From a virus (Duplodnaviria; Caudoviricetes): 61,426 bases of DNA. Positions 35,021 to 51,400 of the stretch are shown here, piece after piece. Numbering within the stretch: the stretch's first letter is position 1; each line of letters starts with the position of its first letter. Position numbers and translations under genes: made by a program. The DNA is taken from the IMG/VR virus record IMGVR_UViG_3300030116_002629, positions 1-61,426 of that record; one strand, given 5' to 3'. The notes under the pieces were generated by a model. That model made no database searches. It was not told the origin of the DNA and was given only the letters and a program-made list of their open reading frames with translations.

Positions 35021-35039
35021 ATTATCCTTCCTATTATTC

Positions 35040-35076
35040 ATAATAGAGAAAAGAAATATAGGGACCGTTAGGTCCC
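35040..35076 (-). promoter_or_regulatory. GTTA-hairpin promoter-like element A
   Basis: GGGACC-GTTA-GGTCCC at 35061-35076; TATTAT on the minus strand at 35045-35040. Confidence 0.65.
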
Positions 35077-35084
35077 GATAAGAC

Positions 35085-35219: not shown

Positions 35220-35246
35220 GTCTTGACATACCTCTATCCATATGTA

Positions 35247-36540: not shown

Positions 36541-36594
36541 ACTGACTACTATAGCAGGATATAGATATAAGTAGATGATTTAAGAAGAAAGTAG

Positions 36595-36667
36595 TGGAGG
36601 TGGCCGGAATCGAACCGGCATTAGTCTAATACAGTTGCCTGTATTAGCTACTAACCTGGACACCCCC
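36595..36667 (-). ncRNA. Non-canonical tRNA-Ala-like RNA (tmRNA TLD-like) with no D-stem and no anticodon loop
   Basis: GGGGGUG/CACCUCC-A acceptor stem with G3.U70 and A73; T-arm GCCGG-UUCGAUU-CCGGC; central 14-bp helix closed by GCAA; CCA not encoded. Confidence 0.8.
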
Positions 36668-36751
36668 AACTGATGGAATACCGTGCTTAAGGTCGGAAAG
36701 GAGTACAACCCACTGTTGCCAGTTGCACGGTACTCCTTAATTTCCTTCCTT

Positions 36752-38263
36752 TTATCCTAGCTGATTTAATGCTAAAGCAAACTTCTTTACTTCATCAATA
36801 TTAGCTAGTCTGGTTATTCCTGAACGCTTGCATATTTCTATACAATCTTTCAATAAGTTTTCACTATTCTGATTATGTAAACCAAAGACATACATATCAC
36901 TCACCCATATTCTTTTAGGTGGTTGTTTAGATAACCATTTCAAAGCAGGGCCATCAACTAAGTTACCTCCGCCTGTATATTTATTTAAGTATTCTTGATT
37001 TACTCTTTTACCATTCTGTCCTATTATTCTTAACGAACCTGTATCCCATGCACCTGCATAGTTATCGTTATACATAGCAATAGTAACAGCTGGTAGTAAT
37101 TGCATTATATCTAGGATATCTTGTCCTGAAAAATGCATTGAACCTGATGCGTCAATTAATATTGTTCCACCATATACTCTTTGTTTTTGTTTGAATACTT
37201 TTTTATCCACACACCAACGATTCATATACTTAGGATTAACACCATAGTCCATTGGCCTATATTCTCTACCACCTTTTATTTTTGATTGCATATTCACATC
37301 AAGATATGGTTTAAATATCTCCATCTTTCCCCACTTACCCATATCATTTGGTTGTGGTTTGTAGTTCATATTACCATCATTGGTAGCATTAAATATCTGC
37401 TCTTTGTTACGCTGCATTAACTCATCTAATGTTTCCATTCCTTCCATATCGCCTTCACCATCTTGTTCAGTAGATGAACTGTTAGCTTTACGATTGGCAT
37501 TCATGGCTTGTTCTTTAGCTTGTTTAGCTTTTCTAGCTTTTTCAAGAACTTCATGTTCTTTAGGCTTGTCATTGAACTCATCCATTAATTTGTTGAGTAT
37601 TATTGCAGCTTGTCTAGTTTTATTGTATTTAGTTGGTTTTCTATAATAACCTCTACTATAAGTTATCTTTTGATATAACTTATTAGCTTGTCTCATAGCC
37701 CATTGCAATTGACCTAATCTTAATTTAGTCATTTGGTTTGGACTACCTGGTTCTATATTATGAACAGATTCCATTGCTTGTTTAATAGATTCAAATTCTG
37801 GTCCAGCAACACTGTGACTATAATAACTGCCACCTTGTCCTGGTCTCATGTTCATTAATATCCATGCAGTGATATCAAATACTGAACCGTTATACAATAT
37901 GTCTAAAGTTTTTTCTTCAAACTTTGGTTGACATATAGTCCATTCATCTAACCATAAATCTTTAACAGATAAATTATAATTAACACGAACTTCTTCGCAT
38001 ATTTCTATACAAATTTCACTTTCATAATCTTTTAATTTACCTACAGTTTTAGGACTCCACTTAGCATGGCCAAGTTCATGTCTTCTAATCATTTTGTTAT
38101 GGTCAGCACCACATAAATCACATACATCACCATTTGTAGGGACATACATTTCTTTAGACAATACAGATGTTCTAGGCTGTTTTTCGTCCTCAAATATTTT
38201 CCAAGGTCCCTCTCCAGAAGCTATTTCTGGAAAGGGTATCTTGTTATTCTTCTTCTTGTACAT
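36752..38263 (-). CDS. HEXXH metallopeptidase-like plus vWA domain protein (partner of the MoxR ATPase)
   Basis: RRHELGH; ILIDASGSM MIDAS motif; GGGN..D and IWVSD vWA motifs. Confidence 0.75.
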   Translation of the reverse strand: MYKKKNNKIPFPEIASGEGPWKIFEDEKQPRTSVLSKEMYVPTNGDVCDLCGADHNKMIRRHELGHAKWSPKTVGKLKDYESEICIEICEEVRVNYNLSVKDLWLDEWTICQPKFEEKTLDILYNGSVFDITAWILMNMRPGQGGSYYSHSVAGPEFESIKQAMESVHNIEPGSPNQMTKLRLGQLQWAMRQANKLYQKITYSRGYYRKPTKYNKTRQAAIILNKLMDEFNDKPKEHEVLEKARKAKQAKEQAMNANRKANSSSTEQDGEGDMEGMETLDELMQRNKEQIFNATNDGNMNYKPQPNDMGKWGKMEIFKPYLDVNMQSKIKGGREYRPMDYGVNPKYMNRWCVDKKVFKQKQRVYGGTILIDASGSMHFSGQDILDIMQLLPAVTIAMYNDNYAGAWDTGSLRIIGQNGKRVNQEYLNKYTGGGNLVDGPALKWLSKQPPKRIWVSDMYVFGLHNQNSENLLKDCIEICKRSGITRLANIDEVKKFALALNQLG

Positions 38264-39017
38264 CTTTTAATTCATTGTCATGTACATTAACATCGGATAG
38301 TTTAATAGCGTCAAGTAACTCTTCACCTCTATCACCGAATATCAATTCAGCTGCCATTTTCATTGGCGTACCTTTTTGTTGAAGTTCAAAGTATTCTCTC
38401 CAACTTCTAACTGATATTCTTTCTTCCATATCCTCTGATAATGAAGTATCTTGTATCACTTGATGCCATGTTTTAGGAAACATCCTTAATGCACTAGGAT
38501 GAATCTCATCAACATGTATTTTAACTGGGAACCTATCTTTAAGTGCCATTGGTAGGCTTTCAGGTAGGCTGTTAGTTGTAGCAATAACATTAAAACCTGA
38601 TTTAGGCCTTACTGTTTCTTTGTCGTCATTATTTAATGTCAACTGTGCTATATCTTTATCATCAAGGATAGCATGTAAGAATGTCATGGCGTCTGGACTA
38701 GCGTGGTCAATCTCATTGACTACCAATCTTCCACCATTTCTCCATGCTTGAATTGCTATACCATCATGCCATTCAAATCCACCGTCAGAGTTTGGCTTGT
38801 AAAAGCCTTCTAAGTTTGCACTAGCAGTATCCTCTGTCATTGTGATTTGATATACATTTGGGTCGCCATTCATATTCAATCCAACCTTATTGGTTGCAGC
38901 AGCATATGTTTTACCAGTCCCTGGTGGACCGTACAACAATATTCTATCGGAGTTTCCGATTGCTGATTTTACTTTATCCCAACAAGTAACTACTTTCGTA
39001 GTCTCTTTCTCACTCAT
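38244..39017 (-). CDS. MoxR/CbbQ/CobS-type AAA+ ATPase
   Basis: GPPGTGKT Walker A; LVVNEID Walker B; IATTN; ALKDRF. Confidence 0.9.
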   Translation of the reverse strand: MSEKETTKVVTCWDKVKSAIGNSDRILLYGPPGTGKTYAAATNKVGLNMNGDPNVYQITMTEDTASANLEGFYKPNSDGGFEWHDGIAIQAWRNGGRLVVNEIDHASPDAMTFLHAILDDKDIAQLTLNNDDKETVRPKSGFNVIATTNSLPESLPMALKDRFPVKIHVDEIHPSALRMFPKTWHQVIQDTSLSEDMEERISVRSWREYFELQQKGTPMKMAAELIFGDRGEELLDAIKLSDVNVHDNELKDVQEEE

Positions 39018-39029
39018 TAGTATCCTTTC

Positions 39030-39353
39030 TTAGAATGGTTTTTCTTCCATTCCATCTATTTTTACAAAACGACAATATATTTCTATAAAGCCGTGTTCTG
39101 GGTTTCTTCGTTGCCTTACTTCAAACAAACCTTTACCTCTAAGGTGTCTGATATTTGTTTGGTTCATGCTTTCGATATTTTGTTTCACACCTGATATCCA
39201 ATTATCAGATTCAGCTATTACATACCATTCATTAGGTGTAGATAATAGTGTTTCTACTTTTTCATCAGTCAATATCGTAGGTGATTTACCTTTACGATTT
39301 GCGTGTGCAACTGGTGGCTTTTTTCTTTCTAACTTACTATTCTGAATCGCCAT
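39030..39353 (-). CDS. Hypothetical protein
   Basis: ORF in the leftward operon. Confidence 0.55.
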   Translation of the reverse strand: MAIQNSKLERKKPPVAHANRKGKSPTILTDEKVETLLSTPNEWYVIAESDNWISGVKQNIESMNQTNIRHLRGKGLFEVRQRRNPEHGFIEIYCRFVKIDGMEEKPF

Positions 39354-39894
39354 CTTTATCCTCTGTCATATCTTTTAGCCATTGTTCTGTTATGTTACCT
39401 GTATTTTCACTATGTTCCATAACTTCAGCAATTGATTTGTCAATCATAGCTTCTTCATTGGCCTCTAATACGCACTGAATAGTAGTTGGTTCCGTAAAGA
39501 AAAACCTATTGAATAAACCTCTATTTCCCATATCATTTAAACACAACATCTGTTCTTCTTGTGTTGCTTTAGGGTCTATAGTTTTAATCCAACCTGTCAT
39601 CATAGCTGCTTTACGGTAAGCGTCTAATCTCATCGCAGCATCTATTGCTTCTTTTGGTCCAACTGCTGGAACTTTATATCTAGTAGCTAGTTCTGTATGT
39701 TCATCAAAGTTAACAAACTTATCACTCCATAAGTATCCATGTTCATCTTCTCTTTGATAAACAATTATAACTACATACATATGAACTTTTTGTTCACCGA
39801 ATGCTACAACATCCCTGTCACTTAACATATTCATTCCTATAAATGAGTCATCATTACAATCATTACAATCGCAACTATCATTTTCTTCAGTCAT
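39337..39894 (-). CDS. Hypothetical protein
   Basis: AAAGGA RBS; overlaps both neighbours. Confidence 0.55.
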   Translation of the reverse strand: MTEENDSCDCNDCNDDSFIGMNMLSDRDVVAFGEQKVHMYVVIIVYQREDEHGYLWSDKFVNFDEHTELATRYKVPAVGPKEAIDAAMRLDAYRKAAMMTGWIKTIDPKATQEEQMLCLNDMGNRGLFNRFFFTEPTTIQCVLEANEEAMIDKSIAEVMEHSENTGNITEQWLKDMTEDKDGDSE

Positions 39895-40195
39895 ATATCA
39901 TTCCTTTCTCTACTTCCCATGTCTCAAAGTTAGCGTGACATCTATCACACCACCATAATTCTGAATGTTCATCGTCAAAATTTAATTCTCCTTCACATAA
40001 TGAACAATAAAATCCTGGTTGTATCTCATTATCAGTTACTAGTTGTAGCATATCTTCAATAATACGCTGCTCAATAAGCAGCTGTTTCTTGTTATACTTC
40101 CACCATCTAATAATGTCATAATTGAAATCACGCAGTCTTATATAGACTTGTTTGTAGAATCTCTTATAATCATTAAATGTCATCCTCATTGTCAA
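39887..40195 (-). CDS. Hypothetical protein with a C-terminal zinc ribbon
   Basis: CSLC..CDRC. Confidence 0.55.
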   Translation of the reverse strand: MTMRMTFNDYKRFYKQVYIRLRDFNYDIIRWWKYNKKQLLIEQRIIEDMLQLVTDNEIQPGFYCSLCEGELNFDDEHSELWWCDRCHANFETWEVEKGMIYD

Positions 40196-40388
40196 CCTTA
40201 ATCTCTACTAAGTCAATCTGATGACTCTCGAATGTAAACAATTTATTGTTATCAGCTAGTTTTACAAGGTTATCAACTTGTTCATCTATCTGGTCAACAG
40301 TTGTTTCTTCTGGGAATGTAAATGTAACCACTACATCTTTGTCCCAGGTTTTCTTTGCTGGGTTTTCATAAACATATGGTTCACTCAT
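40173..40388 (-). CDS. Hypothetical protein
   Basis: ATGA-coupled ORF. Confidence 0.55.
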   Translation of the reverse strand: MSEPYVYENPAKKTWDKDVVVTFTFPEETTVDQIDEQVDNLVKLADNNKLFTFESHQIDLVEIKVDNEDDI

Positions 40389-40588
40389 TGTTCTTCCCTT
40401 CTTGCGACATAATCAAGCTCTTTTACAATGCTTAACTTTAATCTCGCATGTTTAATTTGATTGTGTATTTTTATTTCTTCAACAATACCTTCGCTACTAA
40501 ACTGTTCAAGGTCATTATTAATATCTTTAATAATTTTAATCAATGAACCTTTGGGTAACGATTCTAATTGGTCGTCTAAAACATCCAT
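40385..40588 (-). CDS. Hypothetical protein
   Basis: AAAGGAG RBS. Confidence 0.55.
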   Translation of the reverse strand: MDVLDDQLESLPKGSLIKIIKDINNDLEQFSSEGIVEEIKIHNQIKHARLKLSIVKELDYVARREEQ

Positions 40589-40612
40589 ACATCTCCTTTC
40601 TCTATCATTATA

Positions 40613-40766
40613 TAGATAGCTTGTAGCGTACAGTTTCAGTCATTATGCAAACAGGGGAGTCACACACTCTTACTTCCATACACTACAAGCTACCTACAAC
40701 AATTACTTCCGGGTATACTGTTTATCAAGAGACCTTGAAAAACTCTTGATATTCAATATGTTGTAG
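40613..40766 (-). other. Two long intergenic stem-loops (possible RNase III sites or structured RNA)
   Basis: 40613-40630 pairs with 40679-40696 (G-U pairs work on the minus strand); 40694-40701 with 40759-40766; 40723-40731 with 40743-40751. Confidence 0.5.
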
Positions 40767-40783
40767 AATAGCTTTACTAACTG

Positions 40784-41383
40784 CTAGTTAGCACTTGTTT
40801 CTTCTGTAGGGTCTATTACTAAATTAGCTACTCTGTCAAACATCATAGCATGTTCAGCATATATCTGTTTAGTTTCTTCTTCAGATAATGGGTATTTACT
40901 TTGTACTGGTTCTCTTTCAAATTCGTGCAAAGCAGAATTACTTATCTTTAAATTATATTTTCTAGCAATATCGTTTAATAATTTAAATGGTTCTCCCCAA
41001 GCTGAGTCAAATGTCAAAACAATTTTATTTTCATCCATAAATAATAACTCTGTTTGACAGTCTCCCCATTTGGTTCCCCAGTTTTTGTATTCCCAGTCAA
41101 CTGGTTTATATGTACCATATTTGTCAACTAATTCTTGCTTTGTAATGTCAAGCATTGGCCTAGCACCGTCATCATCCTCAAACCATACATCACATCTAAC
41201 ATCATCAAATGTTCTAGCTCCTTGATGTATAGTTTTGAATATTTTAGGTCTGGGCATACAATTAGTTAAATGATATGCTATTTCACCGTCAGTTGGTTCT
41301 ATATCAGTGATTTTTAGCATAAACTTTTCTAAATCATCACCTTTACCTGTGATTACTATATTGTTATTTGTCCAATTCGGCAT
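40784..41383 (-). CDS. Api92/DUF1281 (YubB ferredoxin-like) family protein
   Basis: MPNWTNN..DWEYKNWGTKWG..LTFDSAWGEP. Confidence 0.75.
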   Translation of the reverse strand: MPNWTNNNIVITGKGDDLEKFMLKITDIEPTDGEIAYHLTNCMPRPKIFKTIHQGARTFDDVRCDVWFEDDDGARPMLDITKQELVDKYGTYKPVDWEYKNWGTKWGDCQTELLFMDENKIVLTFDSAWGEPFKLLNDIARKYNLKISNSALHEFEREPVQSKYPLSEEETKQIYAEHAMMFDRVANLVIDPTEETSAN

Positions 41384-41669
41384 TATCATCTCCCATCATT
41401 TTCTTAGCTTCTTCAATTAATTCATTAATACGAATCATTTCTAATTTTACTTCGTCAGGCACATCTTTATTTTCTTGAGTGAATTTAGTATATTCTTCTC
41501 TAAAATCATCTCTTGATAATACTGTTGCCATAAATTCATTTCTAAATTTATGTGATTTCTTGCCTAAATGCTCAACAATAGCAATTTGAACTGTAGTTAG
41601 TATGTCTATTTGTCTAGTAGCAGTTTCAACGAACTTTTCTAGCTCTTTTAACTCTTTTGGTTTAGCCAT
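41364..41669 (-). CDS. Hypothetical helical protein
   Basis: AAAGGAG RBS. Confidence 0.55.
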   Translation of the reverse strand: MAKPKELKELEKFVETATRQIDILTTVQIAIVEHLGKKSHKFRNEFMATVLSRDDFREEYTKFTQENKDVPDEVKLEMIRINELIEEAKKMMGDDNAELDK

Positions 41670-41805
41670 CTCTCTCCTTTACAACAACTTTTTTGATTGT
41701 ATCTTTACCTTCACCATATGCTTTCATATGGATTTGTGCTTCGTTATAGGAGTAACCTCGTCTAAGGCACTCCCATAACTGCATAATAATTTCTTCCTGA
41801 GACAT
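41662..41805 (-). CDS. Small hypothetical protein, 47 aa
   Basis: MSQEEIIMQLWECLRRGYSYNEAQIHMKAYGEGKDTIKKVVVKERDG; coupled to the upstream stop. Confidence 0.5.
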   Translation of the reverse strand: MSQEEIIMQLWECLRRGYSYNEAQIHMKAYGEGKDTIKKVVVKERDG

Positions 41806-42218
41806 TATTCTTCCTCGTTAATTAAAGTAGCAAGAAAGTCTTTTTGTCCCTTTGCCATATGAAAATCAATATAATCTTTCCATAAAGTATCGAATACATT
41901 TTTTAAGTCTCCGTTACCAATATCATTCTCTGATTGTCCTTGATTTGTATTTAATTTACCAAATCTATCCTTTGGATAAAGTTCTAAATCAAAGAAGTCA
42001 TTGAAATTATGTATAACTTTCCAATGTAATGTTCTATTGTTTATAGTAATGTCAAATTCTATTCCCCCGTGAAATTCTTGAAGTCTTTCGCCTGTTGGAT
42101 TGTTAGTTAGAATTACAACATCTTCTATAAGTTCTTCATACATACCTTCGGGCATTAAATCAATAATACTACCGGCACTATATGATGTAACCATATTTTT
42201 CATCTTTTCCTTTCTCAT
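41805..42218 (-). CDS. Hypothetical protein
   Basis: ORF in the leftward operon; start may be a few codons further in. Confidence 0.55.
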   Translation of the reverse strand: MRKEKMKNMVTSYSAGSIIDLMPEGMYEELIEDVVILTNNPTGERLQEFHGGIEFDITINNRTLHWKVIHNFNDFFDLELYPKDRFGKLNTNQGQSENDIGNGDLKNVFDTLWKDYIDFHMAKGQKDFLATLINEEE

Positions 42219-42253
42219 CTCGCATTTGAACTACTGCGTGACAATTACTACTG

Positions 42254-42281
42254 AAATAAAGGGGGATTTTACTCCCCCTCT
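42254..42281 (-). terminator. Intrinsic terminator after ssb
   Basis: Minus strand AGAGGGGGA-GTAAAA-TCCCCCTTT-ATTT. Confidence 0.6.
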
Positions 42282-42294
42282 ATTAACTAATTTT

Positions 42295-42747
42295 TTATTC
42301 TTGTTCTTCACTAGCATTAGTTTGAACAACTGGATTATCATATCCAAATGTTTCATTTTTAACTGGTGCTTCCCAAATATCTGTAACAACCATTTCGGTC
42401 TTATAGTGCATAACACCTTTATCATCCTCATAGTTATTATTCTGTAATTTTCCAGTAACACCAACTCTTATAAAAGGTTTATTAGTTACTGTACTAACTG
42501 GTGCATTTTGAAGAGTATTAACTATTTTACTAATTAATTTATCTCCATAAGCAACTGCTAGTAGGTTAGCTTGTTTATTTCCTCCATCTAATACGAACTT
42601 AATCCCATTAGCATAAGAGTTTCCTGTTTTGGCTGAACTACCAACTCGTGGCATTCCATCCTCTGTTATTGTTGTCATTAAACCGGTATAATTAATAGTA
42701 TTAATTGTACCTAGGTCTCCTGCAAATTGTTCGAGTCTATCTGTCAT
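42295..42747 (-). CDS. ssb: Single-stranded DNA-binding protein (OB fold)
   Basis: AVAYG..VGVTGKLQNNNYEDDKGVMHYKTEMVVTDI; acidic tail; start MTDRLE after AAAGGAG. Confidence 0.8.
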   Translation of the reverse strand: MTDRLEQFAGDLGTINTINYTGLMTTITEDGMPRVGSSAKTGNSYANGIKFVLDGGNKQANLLAVAYGDKLISKIVNTLQNAPVSTVTNKPFIRVGVTGKLQNNNYEDDKGVMHYKTEMVVTDIWEAPVKNETFGYDNPVVQTNASEEQE

Positions 42748-42784
42748 TATTACTTCATCTCCTTTCAAACAATATACAATATTC

Positions 42785-42822
42785 AAAATAGAAAAAAGAT
42801 AAAAGGGGACCGTTAGGTCCCC
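42785..42822 (-). promoter_or_regulatory. GTTA-hairpin promoter-like element B
   Basis: GGGGACC-GTTA-GGTCCCC at 42805-42822; TATTTT at 42790-42785; directly upstream of ssb. Confidence 0.65.
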
Positions 42823-42828
42823 ATTCTA

Positions 42829-42933
42829 TCATTTATTTTTCAACACATCACTTAGTGTTAACCACCAAGGTTTATTTCTGTGCCATTTATAATATGTTAT
42901 CCAACTAATTATTATCCATAGTTTCTTTAACAT
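42829..42933 (-). CDS. Small Trp-rich peptide, 34 aa
   Basis: MLKKLWIIISWITYYKWHRNKPWWLTLSDVLKNK; fills the gap. Confidence 0.4.
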   Translation of the reverse strand: MLKKLWIIISWITYYKWHRNKPWWLTLSDVLKNK

Positions 42934-42934
42934 A

Positions 42935-43078
42935 TTACTTATTGCCTTTCCATTTTGTATTGAACTTCCAATTAACATTCTCGTTAAGTGGTTGCTCAAA
43001 GCTTATATCCCAACAATCATTACATAACATACCGTCAAGTAATAAATGTTTGGTTTTTGTTTTACAATTAGGACACAT
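42935..43078 (-). CDS. Small zinc-ribbon protein, 47 aa
   Basis: MCPNC...LCNDC. Confidence 0.5.
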   Translation of the reverse strand: MCPNCKTKTKHLLLDGMLCNDCWDISFEQPLNENVNWKFNTKWKGNK

Positions 43079-43274
43079 TATCGTCACTAATTTCTTGGTG
43101 ATAAGAATAAACTATATCTTCTACAATATGTTTACTTCTATCACTTATTTCTTTTAATCCCTTAGCCTCTAATTCTTCAATTTCTTGGGCTGGGAATATA
43201 TTAATTTTTCTTAACAAATTCATACTTTTTGTAAGTGTTAAGACTTCATTGCGTATTTGTTCAAATTCATTCAT
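43068..43274 (-). CDS. Hypothetical protein
   Basis: AAAGGAG RBS. Confidence 0.6.
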   Translation of the reverse strand: MNEFEQIRNEVLTLTKSMNLLRKINIFPAQEIEELEAKGLKEISDRSKHIVEDIVYSYHQEISDDNVS

Positions 43275-43297
43275 CTGAATTTAACTCCTTTCAATAC

Positions 43298-43334
43298 ATA
43301 ATAGAAAGAAGAAGTAAAGGGACCGTTAGGTCCC
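43298..43334 (-). promoter_or_regulatory. GTTA-hairpin promoter-like element C
   Basis: GGGACC-GTTA-GGTCCC at 43319-43334; TATTAT at 43303-43298. Confidence 0.65.
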
Positions 43335-43375
43335 GTTATTCATCTCTCTTTTCTTGTGCGAAAGCTACTAAGTTT

Positions 43376-43419
43376 AAAAAAATACTAAGGGGGGAAAAAG
43401 GGCTATCCCCCCAAAGTAT
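43376..43419 (-). terminator. Intrinsic terminator after the first leftward gene
   Basis: GGGGGGA..TCCCCCC stem followed by a T run on the minus strand. Confidence 0.55.
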
Positions 43420-43426
43420 CAGCTCC

Positions 43427-43714
43427 CTAGTATCTTTCGTAGGTGTCTTTGAAAGCTTTATGGCTAACTTTAAACCATTCTACAAACTCAACAAAGATTG
43501 TATCCGAATAATCATCAGAAGCTGGAACATACTTAAAAGTTCGCTTATCATCTAAGCCATTTAAGTAATCTGTAGCGTCCTCTAAGTTCTCAAACTTAGC
43601 ACGCATTTCTAATAGTAATGTGGAATCAATAGGTTTAGAACTAACCAATTTAGCATTAGTGCCAACTGGAAGCTCTTGGCCTGATATCTCACAAGTATAA
43701 GTTTTCGTAGTCAT
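43427..43714 (-). CDS. Hypothetical protein, first gene of the leftward arm
   Basis: Start MTTKTY after AAAGGAG. Confidence 0.6.
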   Translation of the reverse strand: MTTKTYTCEISGQELPVGTNAKLVSSKPIDSTLLLEMRAKFENLEDATDYLNGLDDKRTFKYVPASDDYSDTIFVEFVEWFKVSHKAFKDTYERY

Positions 43715-43744
43715 TTTAACTCCTTTTTTAACTAACATTAACTT

Positions 43745-43782
43745 GTAATAGAGAGAAGAAGTAAAGAATGCGTTAGCATTCT
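43745..43782 (-). promoter_or_regulatory. GTTA-hairpin promoter-like element D
   Basis: AGAATGC-GTTA-GCATTCT at 43765-43782; same flank and spacing as A-C with a different stem sequence. Confidence 0.65.
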
Positions 43783-43849
43783 AAAGTCCTACTATCTCTT
43801 ATTTAATTTAGAATGTATATGAACAAAAGGGAACATATTAGTCTAAATC

Positions 43850-43946
43850 AAGTTAGAAAGAGTGTAGAAAGTAAGCGTTAGCTTACATACTGTTAAGTAG
43901 CGTTAGCAGAAGTCGTTAGACCTGCAGATGTTAATCTGGCGTTAGC
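43850..43946. repeat. Element E and an array of six GTTA-loop mini-hairpins
   Basis: Stem pairs GTAAGC/GCTTAC, TACT/AGTA, GC/GC, GTC/GAC, CAGAT/ATCTG and GC/GC, each enclosing GTTA, at 43871-43946. Confidence 0.75.
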
Positions 43947-44187
43947 TGTTTTTATATGTATGTGATAAAAAATATGATGGTAATTCTGTATTACTGTATA
44001 GGGGGAGAGCCTGTTTAGGCATGAGCGGGCCTTATATAGTAGTGTTTTAATGATTCAGCTATCTTTTTAATCCTTGAGTACTAGGTTTGTGTTTCTACTT
44101 TATCGTCCTACCGATTCCTAGCTTTCTGCCTCCCGATGGCACCTTTACTTGTAATTAATTTCCTTCTGAATGTTTGTAATTGTTTTT

Positions 44188-44202
44188 AATATAGCATATA
44201 AT
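44188..44202. promoter_or_regulatory. Back-to-back divergent -10 boxes
   Basis: TATAAT (+) at 44197-44202 before terL; TGcTATATT (-) at 44196-44188. Confidence 0.45.
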
Positions 44203-44238
44203 AATATCTAAGCAAGTATCTAAAAAGGATTAGTTTAA

Positions 44239-46155
44239 ATGTCTAACAAGCCCCATAAAGTTTGTGAAGGAACTGGGTGTAAAAAATGGTTAAAAGGAAA
44301 GCAAAGACGCTTTTGTTCTACTACTTGTAATAAAAGAACCTGGGCTCAAGAGAAAGCATCAGGTAAAGAAAACATTACCAAAGCTATTAATAGAGAATTA
44401 AAGTCAGATACTGGTGATTATGCTTCTGTAAGGAGGGGTACTTACTATTCAGAGTTTAAAGCAACCTACGCAGACGACTTAGCAGGGGGCCTAATCACAA
44501 CACTAGAGGTAGCAGAGGCCATTGGGACCAGCTCCGCTACTGTTTCACGCATGCTCGCTGCCTACAAGATAGATAAACAGAATGAAATAAATGCCGAAGG
44601 TTGGGAATTAGATGAAACCCAGACTGAAATTTTAAAAAATTTTTCTAGCTTTCGCTCAAAGTACTTTGCTACTGAAACCGGGGAAAAATTCGAGACAGCA
44701 GACTTTCATGAAAACTGGATATTAAACATAGAAGACTCTATAGAGAACGGTAAAGAGTTATTAATACTGTCACCCCCAAGACATGGAAAGACAGAACTAC
44801 TTATACACTTTGCTATATACCAAATAATGAAAAATCCTAACATAAGAATCATGTGGGTTGGAGGTAACGAGGACATTGCAAAGAATGCATTAAGTTCTGT
44901 ATTAGAACACCTTGATGATAATGAAAGATTGATAGAAGACTTTTGTCCACCAGGTACAAACTTTAAACCTGATAACCGTTCAGGAAAGAACTGGTCACAG
45001 AATCAATTTACTGTAGGTACTAGAACAGTACCAGGTATTAAATCACCAACTATGGTTGCTATAGGTAAGGGTGGAAAGATTCTTTCTCGTGACTGTGACT
45101 TGATTATTGCAGACGACATTGAAGACCACCAGACCACTATGCAACCTGGTGCAAGAGAGAACACTAGACAATGGTGGACCACTACTCTTTCATCAAGAAA
45201 AGAGGAACACACTGCTGTTGTAGTTATTGGTTCAAGGCAACACTCTGATGATTTATACCATCACTTGCTAGGCAATGAAAGTTTTACAACAATAGTTGAA
45301 ACAGCACATGATATGGCCTGTACTATTCCTGACCACTTTGTAGAAGAACATACTGACTGTATGTTATGGCCAGGTAAAAGAACATTCAAATGGTTAATGT
45401 CTCGTATGCAAGCTGCAGAGACAACAGGTGGTAGGAAAATTTATGAAATGGTTTATTACAATCAGGCCTATGTAGAAGGTACACAAATCTTTACTATGGA
45501 TATGATTGATAGTTGTATGCGTAATGATTTAATTATTGGGCAGGTACCAGGCAATTTACATTTAGTTGCCGGACTTGACCCTGCTTCTTCTGGATATCAA
45601 GCAGCTGTACTATGGGGTATAAACTCCTATAGAGGCGAGCTATTTCTTATTGATATAGAGAATAGACAAGGTGGGGGAGTGAAACATGCTTTGCAAATTA
45701 TGTCTGATTGGTATAGCAGGTATGATTTACAACATTGGATTATTGAAGAAAATGGTTTTCAAACTGCTATTAGACAGGATGATAAAATAAAAGAATTTGT
45801 TTTAAGGTCAGGTATAATGATGCAAGGACATGTTACTGGAAAAAATAAACATGACCCTATGTATGGTGTAGGTTCTATGGCTGGTTTATTTGAAAATCAA
45901 AAAATCCACCTACCAGTTGGAAATTCTGAAAGTATTGCTAAAGTTAATGCTTATAAACAACAATTGTTATACTTTGACGGGAAACCAGTGAATCAAAGAA
46001 ACAAAGAAAAGACTGATATAGTCATGGCTGGTTGGTTTCCAATGAAAGTATTCAGAAGAATGAACAAAGAGCAACTTGCTACTATGGGATTAGATTATAA
46101 TGCAAGTTACACAAACTTTGAAGGAAGCGACTATAATGAGGCACCATGGGGATAG
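44239..46155 (+). CDS. terL: Terminase large subunit with a fused N-terminal zinc finger and HTH
   Basis: PPRHGKT Walker A; LIIADD Walker B; GLDPA nuclease motif; N-terminal CEGTGC..CSTTC and LEVAEAIGTSSATVSRML. Confidence 0.9.
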   Translation: MSNKPHKVCEGTGCKKWLKGKQRRFCSTTCNKRTWAQEKASGKENITKAINRELKSDTGDYASVRRGTYYSEFKATYADDLAGGLITTLEVAEAIGTSSATVSRMLAAYKIDKQNEINAEGWELDETQTEILKNFSSFRSKYFATETGEKFETADFHENWILNIEDSIENGKELLILSPPRHGKTELLIHFAIYQIMKNPNIRIMWVGGNEDIAKNALSSVLEHLDDNERLIEDFCPPGTNFKPDNRSGKNWSQNQFTVGTRTVPGIKSPTMVAIGKGGKILSRDCDLIIADDIEDHQTTMQPGARENTRQWWTTTLSSRKEEHTAVVVIGSRQHSDDLYHHLLGNESFTTIVETAHDMACTIPDHFVEEHTDCMLWPGKRTFKWLMSRMQAAETTGGRKIYEMVYYNQAYVEGTQIFTMDMIDSCMRNDLIIGQVPGNLHLVAGLDPASSGYQAAVLWGINSYRGELFLIDIENRQGGGVKHALQIMSDWYSRYDLQHWIIEENGFQTAIRQDDKIKEFVLRSGIMMQGHVTGKNKHDPMYGVGSMAGLFENQKIHLPVGNSESIAKVNAYKQQLLYFDGKPVNQRNKEKTDIVMAGWFPMKVFRRMNKEQLATMGLDYNASYTNFEGSDYNEAPWG

Positions 46156-47942
46156 AAAATTTAGATATTAAGAATTATCAAGAAATAGTAGATAATGCTA
46201 CTCAACTTGTTAGTGGAAGGCCTACTAAACATAGGCAAGTACAAAAAGCTAGAATAAAAGCAATTTTAAATGGTGGAGCTGAAGGAATGAAAGCTCTACT
46301 AGGAAACTCGATGGAGACATCAGATGCAGATTTATTACCTGCACCTAACATGCTTCAATCTGGTATAGATAGACTTGCTCAAAAAATAGCTGGAGTTCCA
46401 GATGTAAGAGTAGATATATTAAATCACAATACTTCTGATAGAGCTAAAAGAAGAGCTGAGAAACTAGAAAGAATTGTTACATCATATGATGAAAGTCAGA
46501 ATTTAAATTTACAGTTAGCTCAGGCAGCTAGATGGTTGCCGGGTTACGGATATGCTGCTTGGATAATAACAACAAGAACAGATAAAAACGGTTATCTATA
46601 CCCAACAGCAGAACTTCGTGACCCTTATGATACATTCCCTGGGAACTTTGGTCCTAACCAAGAACCTAGAGAATTAGCTGTATTAAGACGAATACCTAGA
46701 TATAAGCTTGCTCAACTCTATCCTGAGTTTGCTAAAGAAATCTTAAACCCTGCCGAAGAAGAAAGCACTGATACTGCTATCGGAAGAGGTGGGGTAGGTA
46801 CTCAATATCAAAGTGATAAAGATAATAATTGGGAAGATAATACGGGGCAAGGTGTTCGGATTATTGAATACTACGATGTAGGTGGAACTTATGTTGTATT
46901 CCCTGAAAAGAAAATGATTCTTGACTTTGTTCCGAATTATCTCTCAAGTCCTCCTTTTGTGTTTATGAAGAGAACTTCTTTTGATGAATTAAAAGGACAA
47001 TATGACCACATTATTGGTTTGATGGGTATGATGGCCAAAATTAATATCATGTCAGCAATAGCTATGGAAGACTCTGTATTTACAGAAACAAACATATCTG
47101 GTGAATTAGAGTCAGGCCAATATCGTAAAGGTAGATTTGCTGTTAACTATTTGGCACCTGGTACTCAAGTTTCTAAACCACAAAATAATATACCTTATCA
47201 ATTATTTCAACAAGTAGATAGGTTAGAAAGACAACTCAGATTAGTTGGTGGATATCCAGTTACTGACGATGCACAATCACCTAACTCATTTGTTACTGGT
47301 GCAGGACTACAGGAACTTAACGGAACTATGTCATTAATGATTAATGAATATAGAGAAATTATTAAACATGGCCTTGAAGCTATGGATGAAAAAAGATTAG
47401 AACTTGATAGTTTGTTATCTGCACAATTTGAAGAATTAAGAAAGAAACCAATACAAGGTTTTTATGCTGGAACTGCATTCTCAGAAAACTATTCTCCTAT
47501 AGCAGATATTGGAGGAGATTATAGAACTAGAAGAGTTTATGGAGTTATGGCCGGATTTGATGAGCCACAAAAAATTGTTACTGGTTTGCAATTGTTACAA
47601 GCAGGTGTTATAGACATAGAAACATTGCAAGACAATATTGATGGCCTTGATAACATTGCTAAAGTGCAAGAGCGTATTAGAAAAAATAAAGCAGAAAATG
47701 TTTTATTTGAATCTGTACTTGCTAGAAGTGCTCAAGGAGACCCAGCAGCTACAATGGCAGTAATTGCTATTTATGAATATCCTGCTGAAATGACAGATAT
47801 ATTAAAACTGTTTTATACTCCACAAGAGCCACAAATGACTCCTGAAGAAGAAGCATACATCCAACAACAAATGGGTATGCAACAGCAAATGATGGGGCCT
47901 CAACAGCCTCCAACAGTAGCTGGAGCTTTAGGTGGTGTGTAA
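46146..47942 (+). CDS. Portal protein
   Basis: 598 aa directly after terL; helical; Q/M/P-rich tail typical of podovirus portals. Confidence 0.8.
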   Translation: MGIENLDIKNYQEIVDNATQLVSGRPTKHRQVQKARIKAILNGGAEGMKALLGNSMETSDADLLPAPNMLQSGIDRLAQKIAGVPDVRVDILNHNTSDRAKRRAEKLERIVTSYDESQNLNLQLAQAARWLPGYGYAAWIITTRTDKNGYLYPTAELRDPYDTFPGNFGPNQEPRELAVLRRIPRYKLAQLYPEFAKEILNPAEEESTDTAIGRGGVGTQYQSDKDNNWEDNTGQGVRIIEYYDVGGTYVVFPEKKMILDFVPNYLSSPPFVFMKRTSFDELKGQYDHIIGLMGMMAKINIMSAIAMEDSVFTETNISGELESGQYRKGRFAVNYLAPGTQVSKPQNNIPYQLFQQVDRLERQLRLVGGYPVTDDAQSPNSFVTGAGLQELNGTMSLMINEYREIIKHGLEAMDEKRLELDSLLSAQFEELRKKPIQGFYAGTAFSENYSPIADIGGDYRTRRVYGVMAGFDEPQKIVTGLQLLQAGVIDIETLQDNIDGLDNIAKVQERIRKNKAENVLFESVLARSAQGDPAATMAVIAIYEYPAEMTDILKLFYTPQEPQMTPEEEAYIQQQMGMQQQMMGPQQPPTVAGALGGV

Positions 47943-48100
47943 TGGAGAATTTAGATAATTTGTTTTGGGACATTATTGATAATGAATTTGGTGAAAATCC
48001 ATATGACCCAATGATGCCTCCTATGCAAATAATAAGACCATTACCTAATATAATAATAATGATACAAGGAGAGGAAGGTTATTATGGTACGGAAGAGTAA
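47942..48100 (+). CDS. Small Pro-rich hypothetical protein, 52 aa (allele B)
   Basis: MENLDNLFWDIIDNEFGENPYDPMMPP...; homologue of 243-410. Confidence 0.75.
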   Translation: MENLDNLFWDIIDNEFGENPYDPMMPPMQIIRPLPNIIIMIQGEEGYYGTEE

Positions 48101-48494
48101 TAAAGGTGGGTATAGAAAACCTACTCCTAATAGAAAAAACGCAGTCAGTGGACCAGGAGCTTTAAGTCAAAGAACTGACGGAACTCAGCCAATTATGCGT
48201 GGACAAGATATGGGTTACGGTGAAAGTACAGAATATCAAAATTTACAAAGGAGTGCTCCTATGGGAGATTCTGGTGGAGCTAATATGGGGTTACCTCAAC
48301 AAGCTGCTCCGGGGCCAGATGTTTTTGCACCTACAGAAATACCAGGAGAACCAATAACAGCAGGAGTACCTGTCGGAGAAGGAATGGGGCCACAACGACA
48401 AATAGCTGAAGATGTAGATATATTATTATCTGCAATGTATTCAGTTAACCCTCATCCTGTAATAGCCGATTTAATAAATAACAGAAGTCAATAA
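48084..48494 (+). CDS. Gly/Pro/Gln-rich hypothetical protein (allele B)
   Basis: Homologue of 394-804. Confidence 0.75.
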   Translation: MVRKSNKGGYRKPTPNRKNAVSGPGALSQRTDGTQPIMRGQDMGYGESTEYQNLQRSAPMGDSGGANMGLPQQAAPGPDVFAPTEIPGEPITAGVPVGEGMGPQRQIAEDVDILLSAMYSVNPHPVIADLINNRSQ

Positions 48495-51400
48495 ATGTGG
48501 ATTGACCCAATACAAGAAGCTGAATTTCATAAAGTTGTTGCTATTGACAAACAGAGATTCTTAACAGCACAAGAATATGTTAAAGCAAACCCTATAGTAG
48601 CAGATTTAACAATTGCTCACACAAAAGCAAATCCTATTTTATCAAAAAGTATTGTTACAACATTAGCTATGATGAATGTTCCAGTTGAAGACCCTTCAGT
48701 TCAAATGTTAGCAGATGAAGCTCAAGCAAACTGGGTTATGCAAGAAACTGAAAAGTGGAATGAGATTAATGAAAAATATAGAGATGATAAAATAACAGAT
48801 GATATGCATCTTAGTATTATTGATATTCTTACTGGTGGATATGCACCTGGAGGTAGAACTCCTAAAGAAGTAGGAGGTTGGTCACCAGCTATATGGCTTA
48901 TTGGAACATTAGACGCAATTAGAGAAACTTGGAATAAATGGAATCCATTACCAACTTCTGATGTATTACAATTTGGTGGTGGAGGTGTTCCTTATAGAGC
49001 ACAAGGTCGTATATGGAGATATTATCAAGACCTTAATAGATATGATGAATTATTAGAAAAAGGATATACTCCTAAACAAGCTCAAGCTAATATAGCTTCG
49101 CTAGTAAATATATCTGAAGTACCTAACTTAGGTAAAGATATGGGAGCTGGAGAATTTGCACAGAATTTAGATTTCTTAGAAGAAGCAATTAAATTTGCAG
49201 GAGAAAATTATATTTGGGCAGCAGCTAAAAAAGTATTTAGAGGCGAAGCTGTAAATATGGATAGAAGTAAAAAATTCTTTTTTGAATCTGTACATCATGA
49301 TAAAGACCCTAAATATCATGAATTATTACAAAAGATGAATGGAGATGAAGAAAAAGCTAAACAATTATATTATTTACAAATTGGTACTCCAATTAAAAAA
49401 CTAGATGGAAATGGTGAAATAAATTATTTAAGTATTGAAAATCCAAATAAAATTCAAATCTTTGCTGATAGAAGAACTAACTACAATGATATGAATGTTA
49501 CTGAATATGCTGCAAGAGAATTAATGAAAGATGCTCAGTTAACAGATTATTCTTGGGGAAGATATGAAACTGGACAGTTATTTACACCTGGAACTACATC
49601 ATACAAAGTAATGTCTGGTTTGTTAGATTTTGCATCTGCTTTACCAGCAGAATATGCAACAGGTGGTTTATTAAATTTATATAAAATAAAAGCTGCTTCT
49701 AGAAGTGTTGATGTAGTTAATCAAGCTAAAAAGATTAGAAAAGATACAGGAGATATCAGATGGCTTGATACTAAATTGGAAGCCAAAGAATTAACTGAAT
49801 TAATTAATACAGCTAAAGATAGAACTACTGCAGCAGGAAAACAAGCTTTTGATAAATTAACTAAGAAAGAAAAAGCTTTTATATTAGATGAAGCTGAAGC
49901 AGCAAACTGGGCTATCAATATGGCTAAAGCTGATAAATACAATGGAGTAAATCCAATATTACAAAAAGTAATGAAAGCTGATAAAACCATGAAAAGAAAA
50001 CATGGAATGTTTAATGGAAGATTACAAGGTGTATTTTCTTCAACAGCTGAAAAATTAGTAAATACTGCTGAAGCAAGAATATTAATTAAACATTTTGCAA
50101 ATTCTAGGTCAGCTGATTTAATGTCAGACCCTACATTAAGAAATTGGATTAACAATGATGATTATTGGGAATGGGTAGGAAGACAAACTGATGAAGGAGT
50201 TATTTCAGATTCATTATTGCAAATGATGCGAGATGGTTTTTCTATGCAAAAATTATCACGAAAAGGTGCAGTCGTATCTGATGAATTAATATCAATACCA
50301 GGTTTACCTAAAGGTTTTTCATATTTAACAAACAAAGCAGTGCGTTCAGTAACAGGAAATCAAGATTTTGCAATGAGAAGTCTTGGAGGTGTATTAGGAA
50401 AAAATATTAAAACTCCATATCAAATTACAAGAGGAACTTTAAGATTATTAACACACAGAGCTCAAAGAAAAGATGCTATAAAAACTGCTACAAAAAAAGT
50501 AGAAGGATTAGTAGATGGCCAAGCAGACAGTTGGGATATATTAAAACAAATATACAAAGCTGAAATAAATCCAAACACAGTACCATTTAAAAAATATTTA
50601 GGTTTTAGTGCTAACTTTAGTGATGGTGTATCTCCAAGAATGAAAGCTTTAGTAGCTGAATTACCTGGAAGTTCTATGAACTTAAGTAATCCTAAAGTTG
50701 CAGCTAGGCAATTAGTTAATCATATGAAAGTTAATCAATATACTCCTGATGAATTTGAAACAACTTACAGATTATTTCAAACAGCAATGGAGGGTGGATA
50801 TCAAAAACAAGTTCAATTTACTATGGATTTAATGGAGAATGATTATAACAGAATCAGAAGAACTCTTGAAGAAAAGAAAGCTGCAGGTTTAATAAATGAT
50901 GCACAAGCTAGAGGCCATGAAGTTATTGCTGCTCATATTAAAAAAGTAACAGCTGAATGGAATAAAAAAGAAAGAGCTTACTGGAAAAGTAATGGAGTAG
51001 ATACTAATGGTGTATCAAACAATATACATGCACCAGGTGGAAACACTCCTGAGCAAACATTTAAAATGCTTATTGATGGAGAAGAAATAGAAATTGTTGT
51101 ACCTCACGCACATGTGTTAGCAGAAATGAGTGAAAACTTTATGCCGTTTATCAATCAAGATATGGTAGATAGAGTTAATAGCAAATTGTTTTATCATGTA
51201 GATGTAGATGATGTACAAGCTTGGGAAGTATCAGGTGCTGCTAAACAAAATCTTAAAAACTTCTTTAATAACTGGAAATCTGATGGGTTACAGTTTGCTA
51301 AAAAAGAATACCCAGGTTGGATACCTACAAACAATACAATGGATGATGCAATGACTAAGTTGTTAGATTTCTATACAAGAAAAGTTTTTAAACCAATTGT

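What the first reader, a model, noticed from the sequence alone, without database searches (positions are those of the whole stretch)
43871..43946. Six consecutive GTTA-loop mini-hairpins, each within its own inverted repeat
Seen in 76 nt: GTAAGC-GTTA-GCTTAC (43871-86), TACT-GTTA-AGTA (43888-99), GC-GTTA-GC (43900-07), GTC-GTTA-GAC (43912-21), CAGAT-GTTA-ATCTG (43925-38) and GC-GTTA-GC (43939-46). Every GTTA in this stretch is centred in an inverted repeat, all on one strand, with mostly different stems. It is a repeat of structure that sequence-repeat finders would miss. It lies in the 0.5-kb divergent gap between the early arm and terL, the likely genome end, pac site or origin. Inference: a multivalent loading site for whatever reads the hairpin promoters, a single-strand priming origin, or the packaging signal for the Zn-finger/HTH terminase.
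Basis: partly seen in the sequence, partly recalled or inferred. Interest (0 to 1): 0.8.

Follow-up and report, generated by a model that had tools for sequence, protein, structure and literature searches.

The report
Six-unit DNA mini-hairpin array in phage
An uncultured marine phage carries six tiny, very stable DNA hairpins in a row just upstream of its early genes; the same hairpin heads each early promoter, so the array is probably a docking or strand-opening site for whatever starts early transcription or replication.

Summary
All six GTTA words in 43871-43946 sit in inverted repeats. No dinucleotide shuffle of the window gives six same-loop hairpins within 80 nt (0 of 200).

The array is conserved in a sub-clade of a large family of uncultured marine phages: 14 of 73 relatives examined. 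Stems differ and change in compensating pairs while the loop stays constant.

All units lie on the strand that templates the leftward early arm. The same cGTTAg hairpin, followed at a fixed 21 nt by a TCTATTATG-like box, precedes early genes; the leftmost array unit is such a module. In one relative, every loop in both the array and the modules is GCTA or GATA instead.

GCGTTAGC belongs to the published GCGNNAGC class of extraordinarily stable DNA mini-hairpins, reported at N4 promoters and at primase-dependent origins of phages St-1 and alpha3.

Best reading: a DNA-level hairpin cluster that serves the early-promoter hairpin reader. An origin or priming role is not excluded. TerL as the loop reader is disfavoured. 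No phage RNA polymerase was found. A clade-specific Zn-ribbon protein co-occurs with the system.

The parts
43871..43886 (+). Array unit 1, GTAAGC-GTTA-GCTTAC. It is also the hairpin of a promoter-type module (P0).
   Evidence: Orthologous stems change in compensating pairs, for example GTAGAC/GTCTAC in L005 and GAAAGC/GCTTTC in L071.
43848..43870 (-). Pyrimidine-rich tract and degenerate box (TCTAACTTGA) that follow unit 1 on the minus strand, at the spacing seen in the other modules.
43888..43899 (+). Array unit 2, TACT-GTTA-AGTA (T-A closing pair).
43900..43907 (+). Array unit 3, GCGTTAGC, the minimal mini-hairpin.
   Evidence: GCGNNAGC class.
43912..43921 (+). Array unit 4, GTC-GTTA-GAC.
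43925..43938 (+). Array unit 5, CAGAT-GTTA-ATCTG. It overlaps a family-wide conserved core (GACCTAC..GTTAAYCT).
   Evidence: Stem variants CGGAT/ATCCG and CAGGT/ACCTG occur in relatives.
43939..43946 (+). Array unit 6, GCGTTAGC.
43741..43782 (-). Module P1: hairpin AGAATGC-GTTA-GCATTCT (43765-82), tract and box TCTATTACA, then a ribosome-binding (Shine-Dalgarno) site and the ATG at 43738.
43297..43334 (-). Module P2: hairpin GGGACC-GTTA-GGTCCC, tract and box TCTATTATG, upstream of ORF 43068-43274.
42784..42822 (-). Module P3: hairpin GGGGACC-GTTA-GGTCCCC and box TCTATTTTG, upstream of the SSB-like gene.
35039..35076 (-). Module P4: hairpin GGGACC-GTTA-GGTCCC and box TCTATTATG, upstream of the Rad52-like annealing protein gene.
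43947..43984 (.). AT-rich stretch with a conserved single-copy core, AATATGATGGTAAT at 43971-84, directly right of the array. The core is present in all relatives.
39887..40195 (-). Small Zn-ribbon early protein (CxxC...WWCxxC) whose presence tracks the hairpin system. It is a candidate reader; this is an inference.

Best explanation
The six units are single-strand DNA mini-hairpins of the cGNNAg / GCGNNAGC type. They form on the + strand, which is the template strand of the leftward early arm. They belong to one recognition system with the hairpin-plus-box modules that sit 10-35 nt ahead of the ribosome-binding sites of early genes.

The array consists of one complete module (unit 1 plus its box) and five box-less hairpins stacked directly upstream of it.

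Proposed mechanism (inferred):
- The gap lies between divergent transcription units, so negative supercoiling collects there.
- Supercoiling lets the + strand fold into stable hairpins, while the complementary cTAACg strand cannot do so equally well.
- The result is a strand-asymmetric, partly open region that displays six copies of the loop.
- The factor that reads the promoter hairpins is concentrated or loaded there, next to the first early promoters.

The logic resembles the coliphage N4 early promoters. The parts differ: the loop has four bases, the conserved box lies 20-29 nt from the loop, and no N4-like virion polymerase is detectable.
For: **Shown**
- Pairing with a constant loop and variable stems. 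Among 52 distinct array units from 11 genomes, the closing pair is kept in 51 (CG 38, TA 12, TG 1). The second pair is kept in 49 and uses all four Watson-Crick types. The covariation score is 0.609, against 0.242 in shuffles (0 of 500 reach it) and at most 0.208 for slid partners.
- Strand and place. cGNTAg hairpins with a stem of 4 or more occur only on the early-arm template strand, and only in the early arm plus the gap, in the window and in 4 fuller relatives. There are none in the non-array relative G005.
- Modules. There are 24 distinct hairpins outside the arrays (stem 4 or more) in 13 genomes. Most are followed by a T/C-rich tract and a TCTATTAT(G/A)A box at a fixed distance. A few lack the box (L001 -964, L007 -1744, L010 -1213, L020 -939). 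The leftmost array unit has the same layout in every array genome.
- Concerted loops. In L005/G002, all 6 array loops and all 4 module loops are GCTA or GATA, and none is GTTA.
- Literature, from passages read in a 2026 review (PMC13037366). GCGNNAGC forms an extraordinarily stable DNA mini-hairpin. The GTTA loop is accepted. The RNA form r(GCGAAAGC) melts at 39 C against 76.5 C for DNA. Such hairpins bind SSB poorly. They occur at the N4 promoter and in hairpin I of the St-1 and alpha3 origins.
- N4 precedent, from passages read in PMC4496689: a template-strand hairpin, extrusion by supercoiling and stabilisation by SSB.
- Many units have only 2-bp GC stems (22 of 91). That is meaningful for DNA mini-hairpins but not for RNA.
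- Internal stem mismatches are G-T type on the + strand in 5 cases, against 1 of the type that would be G-U on the minus strand.
- The + strand DNA fold reproduces the six hairpins.
Against: - No reader is identified.
  - No RNA polymerase was found by PHROGs, Pfam, NCBIfam or PDB sequence search.
  - No DxDxD motif occurs in the large proteins.
  - A model of the C-terminal 1039 residues of the giant virion protein matches no solved fold. Its first 900 residues were not folded.
- No transcription start or RNA coverage of the gap could be obtained.
- Hairpins with 2-3 bp stems are not expected to extrude from duplex DNA unaided.
- The thermodynamic z-score of the array is modest (-2.42).
- The box resembles a sigma-70 -10 hexamer, so the modules could be ordinary host promoters joined to hairpins.
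- The units compared are related by descent, so the shuffle controls overstate independence.
- L007 and its duplicates keep GTTA words with weak stems in 3 of 5 array units.
Confidence: 0.45

Rival explanations
1. Replication origin or single-strand priming site. The hairpin cluster and the adjacent AT-rich stretch open under transcription-driven supercoiling. The SSB-resistant mini-hairpins then mark where a primase or helicase loads, as proposed for hairpin I of the G4, St-1 and alpha3 complementary-strand origins.
For: - GCGTTAGC is reported as the St-1/alpha3 origin mini-hairpin, and mini-hairpins bind SSB poorly (passages).
- The array lies at the divergence point of the two gene arms, next to an AT-rich, family-wide conserved single-copy core.
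- The phage encodes SSB, a Rad52-like annealing protein and an Mre11-like nuclease but no polymerase, so it must recruit host replication.
- Non-array relatives often carry one + strand mini-hairpin (GCGAAGC, CCGAAGG or CCGTAAGG cores) in the same gap: 21 on the + strand against 2 on the minus strand in 41 distinct gaps. Many of these gaps are near-duplicates.
Against: - The same hairpin recurs 3-5 times per genome immediately ahead of early genes, at a fixed distance from a promoter-like box. That points to transcription.
- An origin should be conserved across the family, but only a sub-clade has the array.
- No primase or initiator gene was recognised.
Confidence: 0.2
2. RNA-level element. 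Early transcription starts right of the array, so the leader RNA carries six C(UAAC)G hairpins. These load or titrate an RNA-binding protein, such as an antiterminator or terminator-stabilising factor, that also acts at the UAAC-loop hairpins between early genes.
For: - The scan calls the module hairpins terminator-like on the minus strand: 6 sites against 0.9 expected.
- The hairpins lie between genes.
- A conserved block with sigma-70-like spacing (TTACCA-17-TACATA on the minus strand) lies right of the array (my reading of the sequence).
Against: - Two-base-pair RNA stems would be unstable. The review gives 39 C even for r(GCGAAAGC).
- The minus-strand RNA fold of the array is no better than shuffles (z -0.52).
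- Many module stems are AT-rich, and several lack a U run directly after the stem. The conserved part is the distal box.
- Mismatch types favour + strand pairing, 5 against 1.
- The putative -10 lacks the conserved final T.
Confidence: 0.12
3. Composite terminator-promoter cassettes of the PeSL/PmSL kind. The CGTTAG word is a duplex activator box at about -35 and the box is a -10. The stems pair only because they double as RNA terminators. The array is a cluster of duplex activator sites.
For: - If TATTAT is the -10, the loop falls at -37 to -34 (my arithmetic).
- T4-like PmSLs combine a Mot box with a TATTAT -10, and they sit in mosaic early regions (passages of PMC4122927).
- Early gene content here is mosaic between close relatives.
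Against: - In the array there is no room for terminators or boxes, yet complementarity is kept. The second pair is paired in 49 of 52 units with all four pair types, and compensatory changes occur between near-identical genomes, for example L010 against L012.
- In PeSLs the stems carry the consensus. Here the loops do.
Confidence: 0.1
4. Packaging (pac) signal read by the Zn-ribbon/HTH N-terminus of TerL, or ordinary duplex iterons.
For: - The array lies about 290 nt upstream of terL, and no small terminase gene is seen.
- In distantly related Streptomyces podophages, terL is gene 1, 679 nt from the genome's left end.
Against: - The TerL N-terminus is conserved in relatives without the array. 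It is nearly identical in L003 and L005, whose loops differ.
- The same hairpins occur up to 9 kb away at gene starts.
- Spacing between units is irregular: 15, 10, 13, 15 and 11 nt.
- Only 4-6 bases are constant.
- The family-wide core at 43971-84 is the better candidate for a terminase site.
Confidence: 0.06

Closest known systems
Coliphage N4 (Schitoviridae) early promoters read by the virion RNA polymerase
   Same: - Small hairpin on the template strand.
- Variable stem with a conserved loop closed by C-G, and a G...A arrangement of the mini-hairpin type.
- Several copies at the start of the early region, all in one orientation.
- Strand asymmetry that lets SSB keep one hairpin.

   Basis: for N4; for this phage.
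   Different: - Four-base loop, against three in N4.
- The conserved box lies 20-29 nt from the loop. In N4 the start is about 11 nt from the loop centre.
- No N4-type virion polymerase was detected.
- An extra array of five box-less hairpins; none was mentioned in the N4 passages read.
- An unrelated phage family of about 44 kb.
Hairpin I of the primase-dependent complementary-strand origins of phages G4, St-1 and alpha3
   Same: The identical eight-base mini-hairpin GCGTTAGC is reported for St-1 and alpha3. The structure is SSB-resistant and marks an initiation site on single-stranded DNA.
   Different: - Those are single-stranded DNA phages with one origin of three long hairpins.
- Here a double-stranded DNA phage has six to seven short units, plus copies at gene starts.
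- No priming is shown.
DNA mini-hairpins GCGNNAGC / GCGNAGC (Hirao and co-workers)
   Same: Units 1, 3 and 6 and module P1 contain GCGTTAGC exactly. The GTTA loop is listed as accepted.
   Different: Units with T-A closing pairs (2 and 5) or TC/GA stems (4) fall outside the tested class. Their stability is unknown.
PeSL/PmSL promoter-stem-loop cassettes of T4-like phages
   Same: Stem-loop plus promoter element repeated between small, mosaic early genes, with a TATTAT-type -10.
   Different: - In PeSLs the stems carry the consensus and a -35 or Mot box is present.
- Here the loop is the constant part and no -35 is present.
- No tandem box-less array was mentioned in the PeSL passages read.

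Membership tests
N4-type virion-RNAP hairpin promoters | Hairpin on the template strand of the early genes, with a variable stem and a conserved loop. | tested here: met
   All cGNTAg hairpins lie on the strand that templates the early arm. Stems covary while the loop is constant.
N4-type virion-RNAP hairpin promoters | Three-base loop in a GC-rich heptamer centred at -11, with conservation from -17 to +1. | tested here: not met
   The loop has four bases. The conserved box lies 20-29 nt from the loop.
N4-type virion-RNAP hairpin promoters | Giant virion-packaged T7-like RNA polymerase. | tested here: inconclusive
   - No hit in PHROGs, Pfam, NCBIfam or PDB sequences for the 1938-aa and 1518-aa proteins.
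- The C-terminal 1039-aa model has no clear fold match.
- The N-terminal 900 aa were not folded.
N4-type virion-RNAP hairpin promoters | Dependence on gyrase supercoiling and SSB. | not testable with these tools
   This needs probing of supercoiled DNA and transcription assays.
GCGNNAGC DNA mini-hairpin class | Two G-C pairs closing a G-N-N-A loop. | tested here: met
   GCGTTAGC occurs at 43875-82, 43900-07, 43939-46 and 43770-77. The closing pair is C-G in 38 of 52 array units. Units 2, 4 and 5 do not fit strictly.
GCGNNAGC DNA mini-hairpin class | Extraordinary thermal and nuclease stability. | not testable with these tools
   Only nearest-neighbour folding was possible. Melting data come from the review.
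Primase-dependent origins (G4/St-1/alpha3 type) | Single-stranded DNA genome with one three-hairpin origin and a primase start site. | tested here: not met
   This is a tailed double-stranded DNA phage with terminase, portal and major capsid genes. It has many copies of the hairpin. A primer start was not tested.
PeSL/PmSL cassettes | Stem-loop followed by a sigma-70 -35/-10 pair or a Mot box plus -10. | tested here: inconclusive
   A -10-like TATTAT box is present. No conserved -35 is present. The loop falls where a -35 or Mot box would.
Iterons / duplex repeat sites | Direct repeats of constant sequence, usually in helical phase. | tested here: not met
   Only C-GTTA-G is constant, the flanks are complementary rather than constant, and the spacing is 10-16 nt.
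Terminase recognition (pac) site | Co-variation with the terminase DNA-binding domain, and a cut or end nearby. | tested here: not met
   The TerL N-domain does not track the presence of the array or the loop sequence. No fixed terminus was seen in contig ends. Raw reads were unavailable.

The most novel reading that the evidence does not exclude
A previously undescribed, structure-specific initiation system in a widespread family of uncultured marine phages. A factor reads cGNTAg DNA mini-hairpins on the template strand to fire early promoters. This factor could be the clade-specific small Zn-ribbon protein, an injected giant virion protein with no known fold, or a host enzyme. The six-hairpin array would be its supercoil-driven loading pad, possibly doubling as the replication origin.
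Probability: 0.25. Interest if true: 0.85.

Novelty: new variant of a known kind. Interest (0 to 1): 0.72.

Why it matters
- In the two reviews read here, DNA-hairpin promoters were described only for N4, and mini-hairpin initiation sites only for a few single-stranded DNA phage and plasmid origins.
- Here the same physical device appears in an unrelated, abundant marine phage family, and it is multiplied into a conserved six-unit array.
- A natural specificity switch in one lineage and a co-occurring Zn-ribbon protein give direct handles for experiments.
- If confirmed, hairpin-read initiation would be a recurrent strategy rather than an N4 oddity.
- It would also supply a compact, orthogonal, structure-encoded promoter or origin element.
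- The case shows that structure repeats, invisible to sequence-repeat finders, can be found by loop-anchored searches.

Tried and rejected
- **Close DNA relatives in GenBank phages:** none. By protein, only distant Streptomyces podophages at no more than 29% identity.
- **Rfam on 42000-44600:** only sub-threshold MicX matches. No tRNA genes.
- **Genome ends.**
  - Contig starts of relatives scatter from -28 to -672 nt relative to the conserved core, with no common terminus.
  - Ends of fuller records fall in the hypervariable tail region.
  - The 83-bp end repeat of G005 lies far from the gap.
- **Sequencing runs.**
  - All 24 runs are kept as contigs, none as raw reads, so no read-terminus or 5'-end analysis was possible.
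  - One DNA contig spans 43370-44149.
  - The single RNA run laid left the gap uncovered at very low depth. This says nothing either way.
- **Search for a polymerase.**
  - Family and PDB sequence searches, a DxDxD scan, the protein Atlas (nearest named cluster LPD38, score 0.93) and one AlphaFold model with Foldseek and VIA-align searches all gave no polymerase.
  - The VIA-align list holds only short helical matches with Z below 6.
- **Collection scan for two GCGTTAGC words within 20 nt.**
  - Among the 80 loci I screened, 8 had 4 or more GTTA hairpins within 120 nt.
  - Three of the 8 are relatives of this phage. Five are plain tandem direct repeats with constant flanks.
- **Late-promoter idea for the core motif:** rejected, because the core occurs once in the window.
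- **DnaA box in the gap:** none seen by eye.

Full report
**What the window is.**
- The 61,426-base window is the whole record held for this genome. It has 34% G+C.
- It is a tailed phage with a T7-like large terminase (weak match), a portal, a major capsid protein and giant virion proteins of unknown family.
- Plus-strand virion genes run from 804 to 31077. A minus-strand arm (32175-43738) encodes an SSB-like protein, a Rad52-like annealing protein, an Mre11-like nuclease and an AAA ATPase.
- terL starts at 44239, which leaves a 500-nt divergent gap.
- No close relative is in GenBank phages.
- IMG/VR holds at least 276 relatives, of which 80 were kept. A complete one is 43,905 bp.
- The window is about 1.4 genome units long. 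Its two ends are homologous at 70-86% identity, and they resemble two different relatives.

**Check of the observation.**
- Outside the ten hairpins of this system, 24 of 384 GTTA words have 2 or more flanking pairs. That is the chance rate.
- I tested any tetraloop, not only GTTA. No shuffle of 200 reached six same-loop hairpins within 80 nt, and 2 reached five.
- As single-stranded DNA, the + strand folds into precisely the six hairpins (z -2.42).
- The minus strand and both RNAs fold less well or differently.

**Comparative evidence.**
- Of 73 relatives with at least 300 nt upstream of terL (7 of the 80 kept were too short), 13 have 4-7 GTTA hairpins at the same place. One more, L005, has the same array with other loops. 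The other 59 have two or fewer.
- In 12 distinct genomes, 77 of 91 loop words in the gap have a stem of 2 or more. Elsewhere in the same loci the figure is 58 of 785. I dropped L008, L009 and L013 from this count as duplicates.
- I aligned 56 array units on their loops (52 distinct).
  - The closing pair is kept in 51 of 52 and the next pair in 49 of 52.
  - The next pair appears as G-C, A-T, T-A and C-G.
  - Covariation exceeds all 500 shuffles and all slid controls.
- Orthologous units change in compensating pairs.
  - Unit 5 appears as CAGAT/ATCTG, CGGAT/ATCCG and CAGGT/ACCTG.
  - Unit 1 differs by two double changes between L003 and L005.
  - Unit 1 also differs by a double change plus a repaired mismatch between the otherwise near-identical L010 and L012.
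- Against the structure reading, L007 and its duplicates keep the words but lose pairing in 3 of 5 array units.
- The units are related by descent, so the shuffle statistics overstate independence.

**The array is part of a larger system.**
- Read on the minus strand, four strong hairpins in the early arm (loops at 35067, 42812, 43325 and 43772) share a layout.
  - Each is followed by about 12 pyrimidine-rich bases and a TCTATTATG-type box.
  - The box starts exactly 21 nt after the loop.
  - A Shine-Dalgarno sequence and a start codon follow.
- Across 13 genomes there are 24 distinct such hairpins outside the arrays. The box positions are 70-95% conserved, although a few hairpins lack a box.
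- The leftmost array unit has the same tract and a more degenerate box in every array genome. The array is therefore one module with five box-less hairpins stacked upstream of it.
- A whole-record census finds cGNTAg hairpins (stem 4 or more) only on the template strand of the early arm, and only in that arm and the gap. The non-array relative G005 has none.
- In L005/G002, every loop in both the array and the modules is GCTA or GATA. The stems stay close to those of L003.
- One reader therefore serves both classes, and its specificity has shifted in that lineage. This last step is inference.

**DNA or RNA, and which strand.**
- A 2026 review (PMC13037366; I read passages) describes GCGNNAGC and GCGNAGC as extraordinarily stable DNA mini-hairpins held by two G-C pairs and a sheared G-A pair.
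  - It lists GTTA among accepted loops.
  - It gives 76.5 C for d(GCGAAAGC) against 39 C for the RNA.
  - It reports poor SSB binding.
  - It names three natural sites: GCGAAAGC in G4 hairpin I, GCGTTAGC in St-1 and alpha3, and GCGGAGC in the N4 promoter.
- GCGTTAGC is the core of units 1, 3 and 6 and of module P1.
- Several facts favour a + strand DNA structure over an RNA.
  - Two-base-pair units are frequent (22 of 91).
  - All units lie on one strand.
  - Internal mismatches are G-T type on the + strand in 5 cases, against 1 of the opposite type.
  - The complementary loop cTAACg is not of the stable class.
- The N4 review (PMC4496689; passages) gives the precedent. There, template-strand hairpins are extruded by gyrase-driven supercoiling and kept by SSB. 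They have variable stems and a conserved loop, and they are read by the injected polymerase.

**Who reads it.**
- I found no RNA polymerase.
  - Family and PDB sequence searches were negative for the large proteins.
  - A DxDxD scan was negative.
  - The protein Atlas gave only a polyvalent-protein domain as its nearest named cluster.
  - An AlphaFold model of the last 1039 residues of the 1938-aa protein (45-sequence alignment, pLDDT 73) matched no solved fold.
  - The first 900 residues remain untested.
- The TerL N-terminal Zn-ribbon/HTH domain is conserved in relatives without the array. It is nearly identical in L003 and L005, so it is not the loop reader.
- One small early protein with an invariant CxxC...WWCxxC Zn ribbon (39887-40195) tracks the system.
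  - It is present in 6 of 6 array loci that hold at least 5 kb upstream, and in the window.
  - It is absent from that region in 0 of 28 cases reversed: none of the 28 non-array relatives has it.
  - It has no family above threshold.
- The co-occurrence is confounded by shared ancestry, and the gene itself lies behind hairpin modules.

**Mechanism proposed.**
- Shown: a conserved, strand-specific, structure-defined array that shares its loop with promoter-type modules.
- Inferred:
  - The array lies between leftward early promoters and a rightward sigma-70-like promoter at 44174-44202. That promoter is invariant in the family.
  - Negative supercoiling accumulates between divergent promoters.
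  - The + strand folds into SSB-resistant mini-hairpins while the other strand stays single.
  - The open, multivalent structure concentrates the hairpin reader beside the first promoters.
- The same structure could serve as an unwinding and priming site, which is the main rival.
- More distant relatives have long inverted repeats in this place, or a single + strand mini-hairpin. This fits a lineage-specific regulatory region better than a family-wide origin or pac site.
- The single-copy core at 43971-84 and the structured element at 44054-44170 are conserved in all relatives. They are better candidates for the origin or pac role.

**What could not be done.**
- No raw reads were on offer, so neither genome termini nor transcript starts could be mapped.
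- Contig ends give no fixed terminus.
- My searches of the paper library for hairpin promoters, mini-hairpins and the motif itself found no description of this array or of this phage family's promoters. The library lacks many subscription papers, and supplements were not consulted.

**Verdict.**
- The finding is real, it is conserved, and it is more than its first description.
- It is a new variant of hairpin-type initiation elements, with an unknown reader.
- It is well suited to experiment.

Noticed in passing
window 44054-44170 (+): A conserved structured element lies between the array/core and the terL promoter. RNAalifold on 38 relatives gives 27 pairs, 20 with compensatory changes, arranged as a multi-branch fold. 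It has no Rfam match. Its strand and function are unknown. It could be a leader or small RNA, or a DNA-level site for packaging or replication.
   Followed up: partly
window 43971-43984 and 44174-44202: The core AATATGATGGTAAT occurs once in the window and is almost invariant in all relatives. A TTGTAA-17-TATAAT promoter-like site just upstream of terL is also invariant across the family.
   Followed up: partly
window 1-15854 and 47709-61426: The two ends of the record are homologous at 70-86% identity. One copy of the giant protein is 93% identical to relative G001, and the other is 89% identical to G002. Complete relatives are about 43.9 kb. The record is probably an assembly that ran around the genome from one strain into another, not a 61-kb genome.
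   Followed up: partly
window 39887-40195 (-): A small early Zn-ribbon protein (invariant CxxC...WWCxxC) was found in 6 of 6 hairpin-bearing loci with enough flank, and in none of 28 other relatives. It has no known family.
   Followed up: partly
window 804-6620 and 48495-54302 (+): A giant virion protein of about 1,940 aa is conserved in the whole family but diverges fast (29% identity to G005). It has no Pfam, PHROG or PDB match. The model of its C-terminal 1039 aa is mostly helical with no clear fold match.
   Followed up: partly
window 43783-43862: Between modules P0 and P1, a short motif (GGAACAkAT on the + strand) is conserved in the array clade. No conserved reading frame accompanies it. 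A short transcript from P0 ending at the P1 hairpin is possible.
   Followed up: no
L016, L035, L054 and other non-array relatives, about 360-420 nt upstream of terL: Single + strand hairpins with mini-hairpin cores (GCGAAGC, CCGAAGG, CCGTAAGG) recur in the gap of relatives that lack the array. There are 21 on the + strand against 2 on the minus strand in 41 distinct gaps, many of them near-duplicates.
   Followed up: partly
early arms of L001, L007, L010, L020 against window 41800-43738: The first early genes behind the hairpin modules are replaced wholesale between close relatives. The modules and the array stay. This mosaicism is reminiscent of promoter-stem-loop cassettes in T4-like phages.
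   Followed up: no
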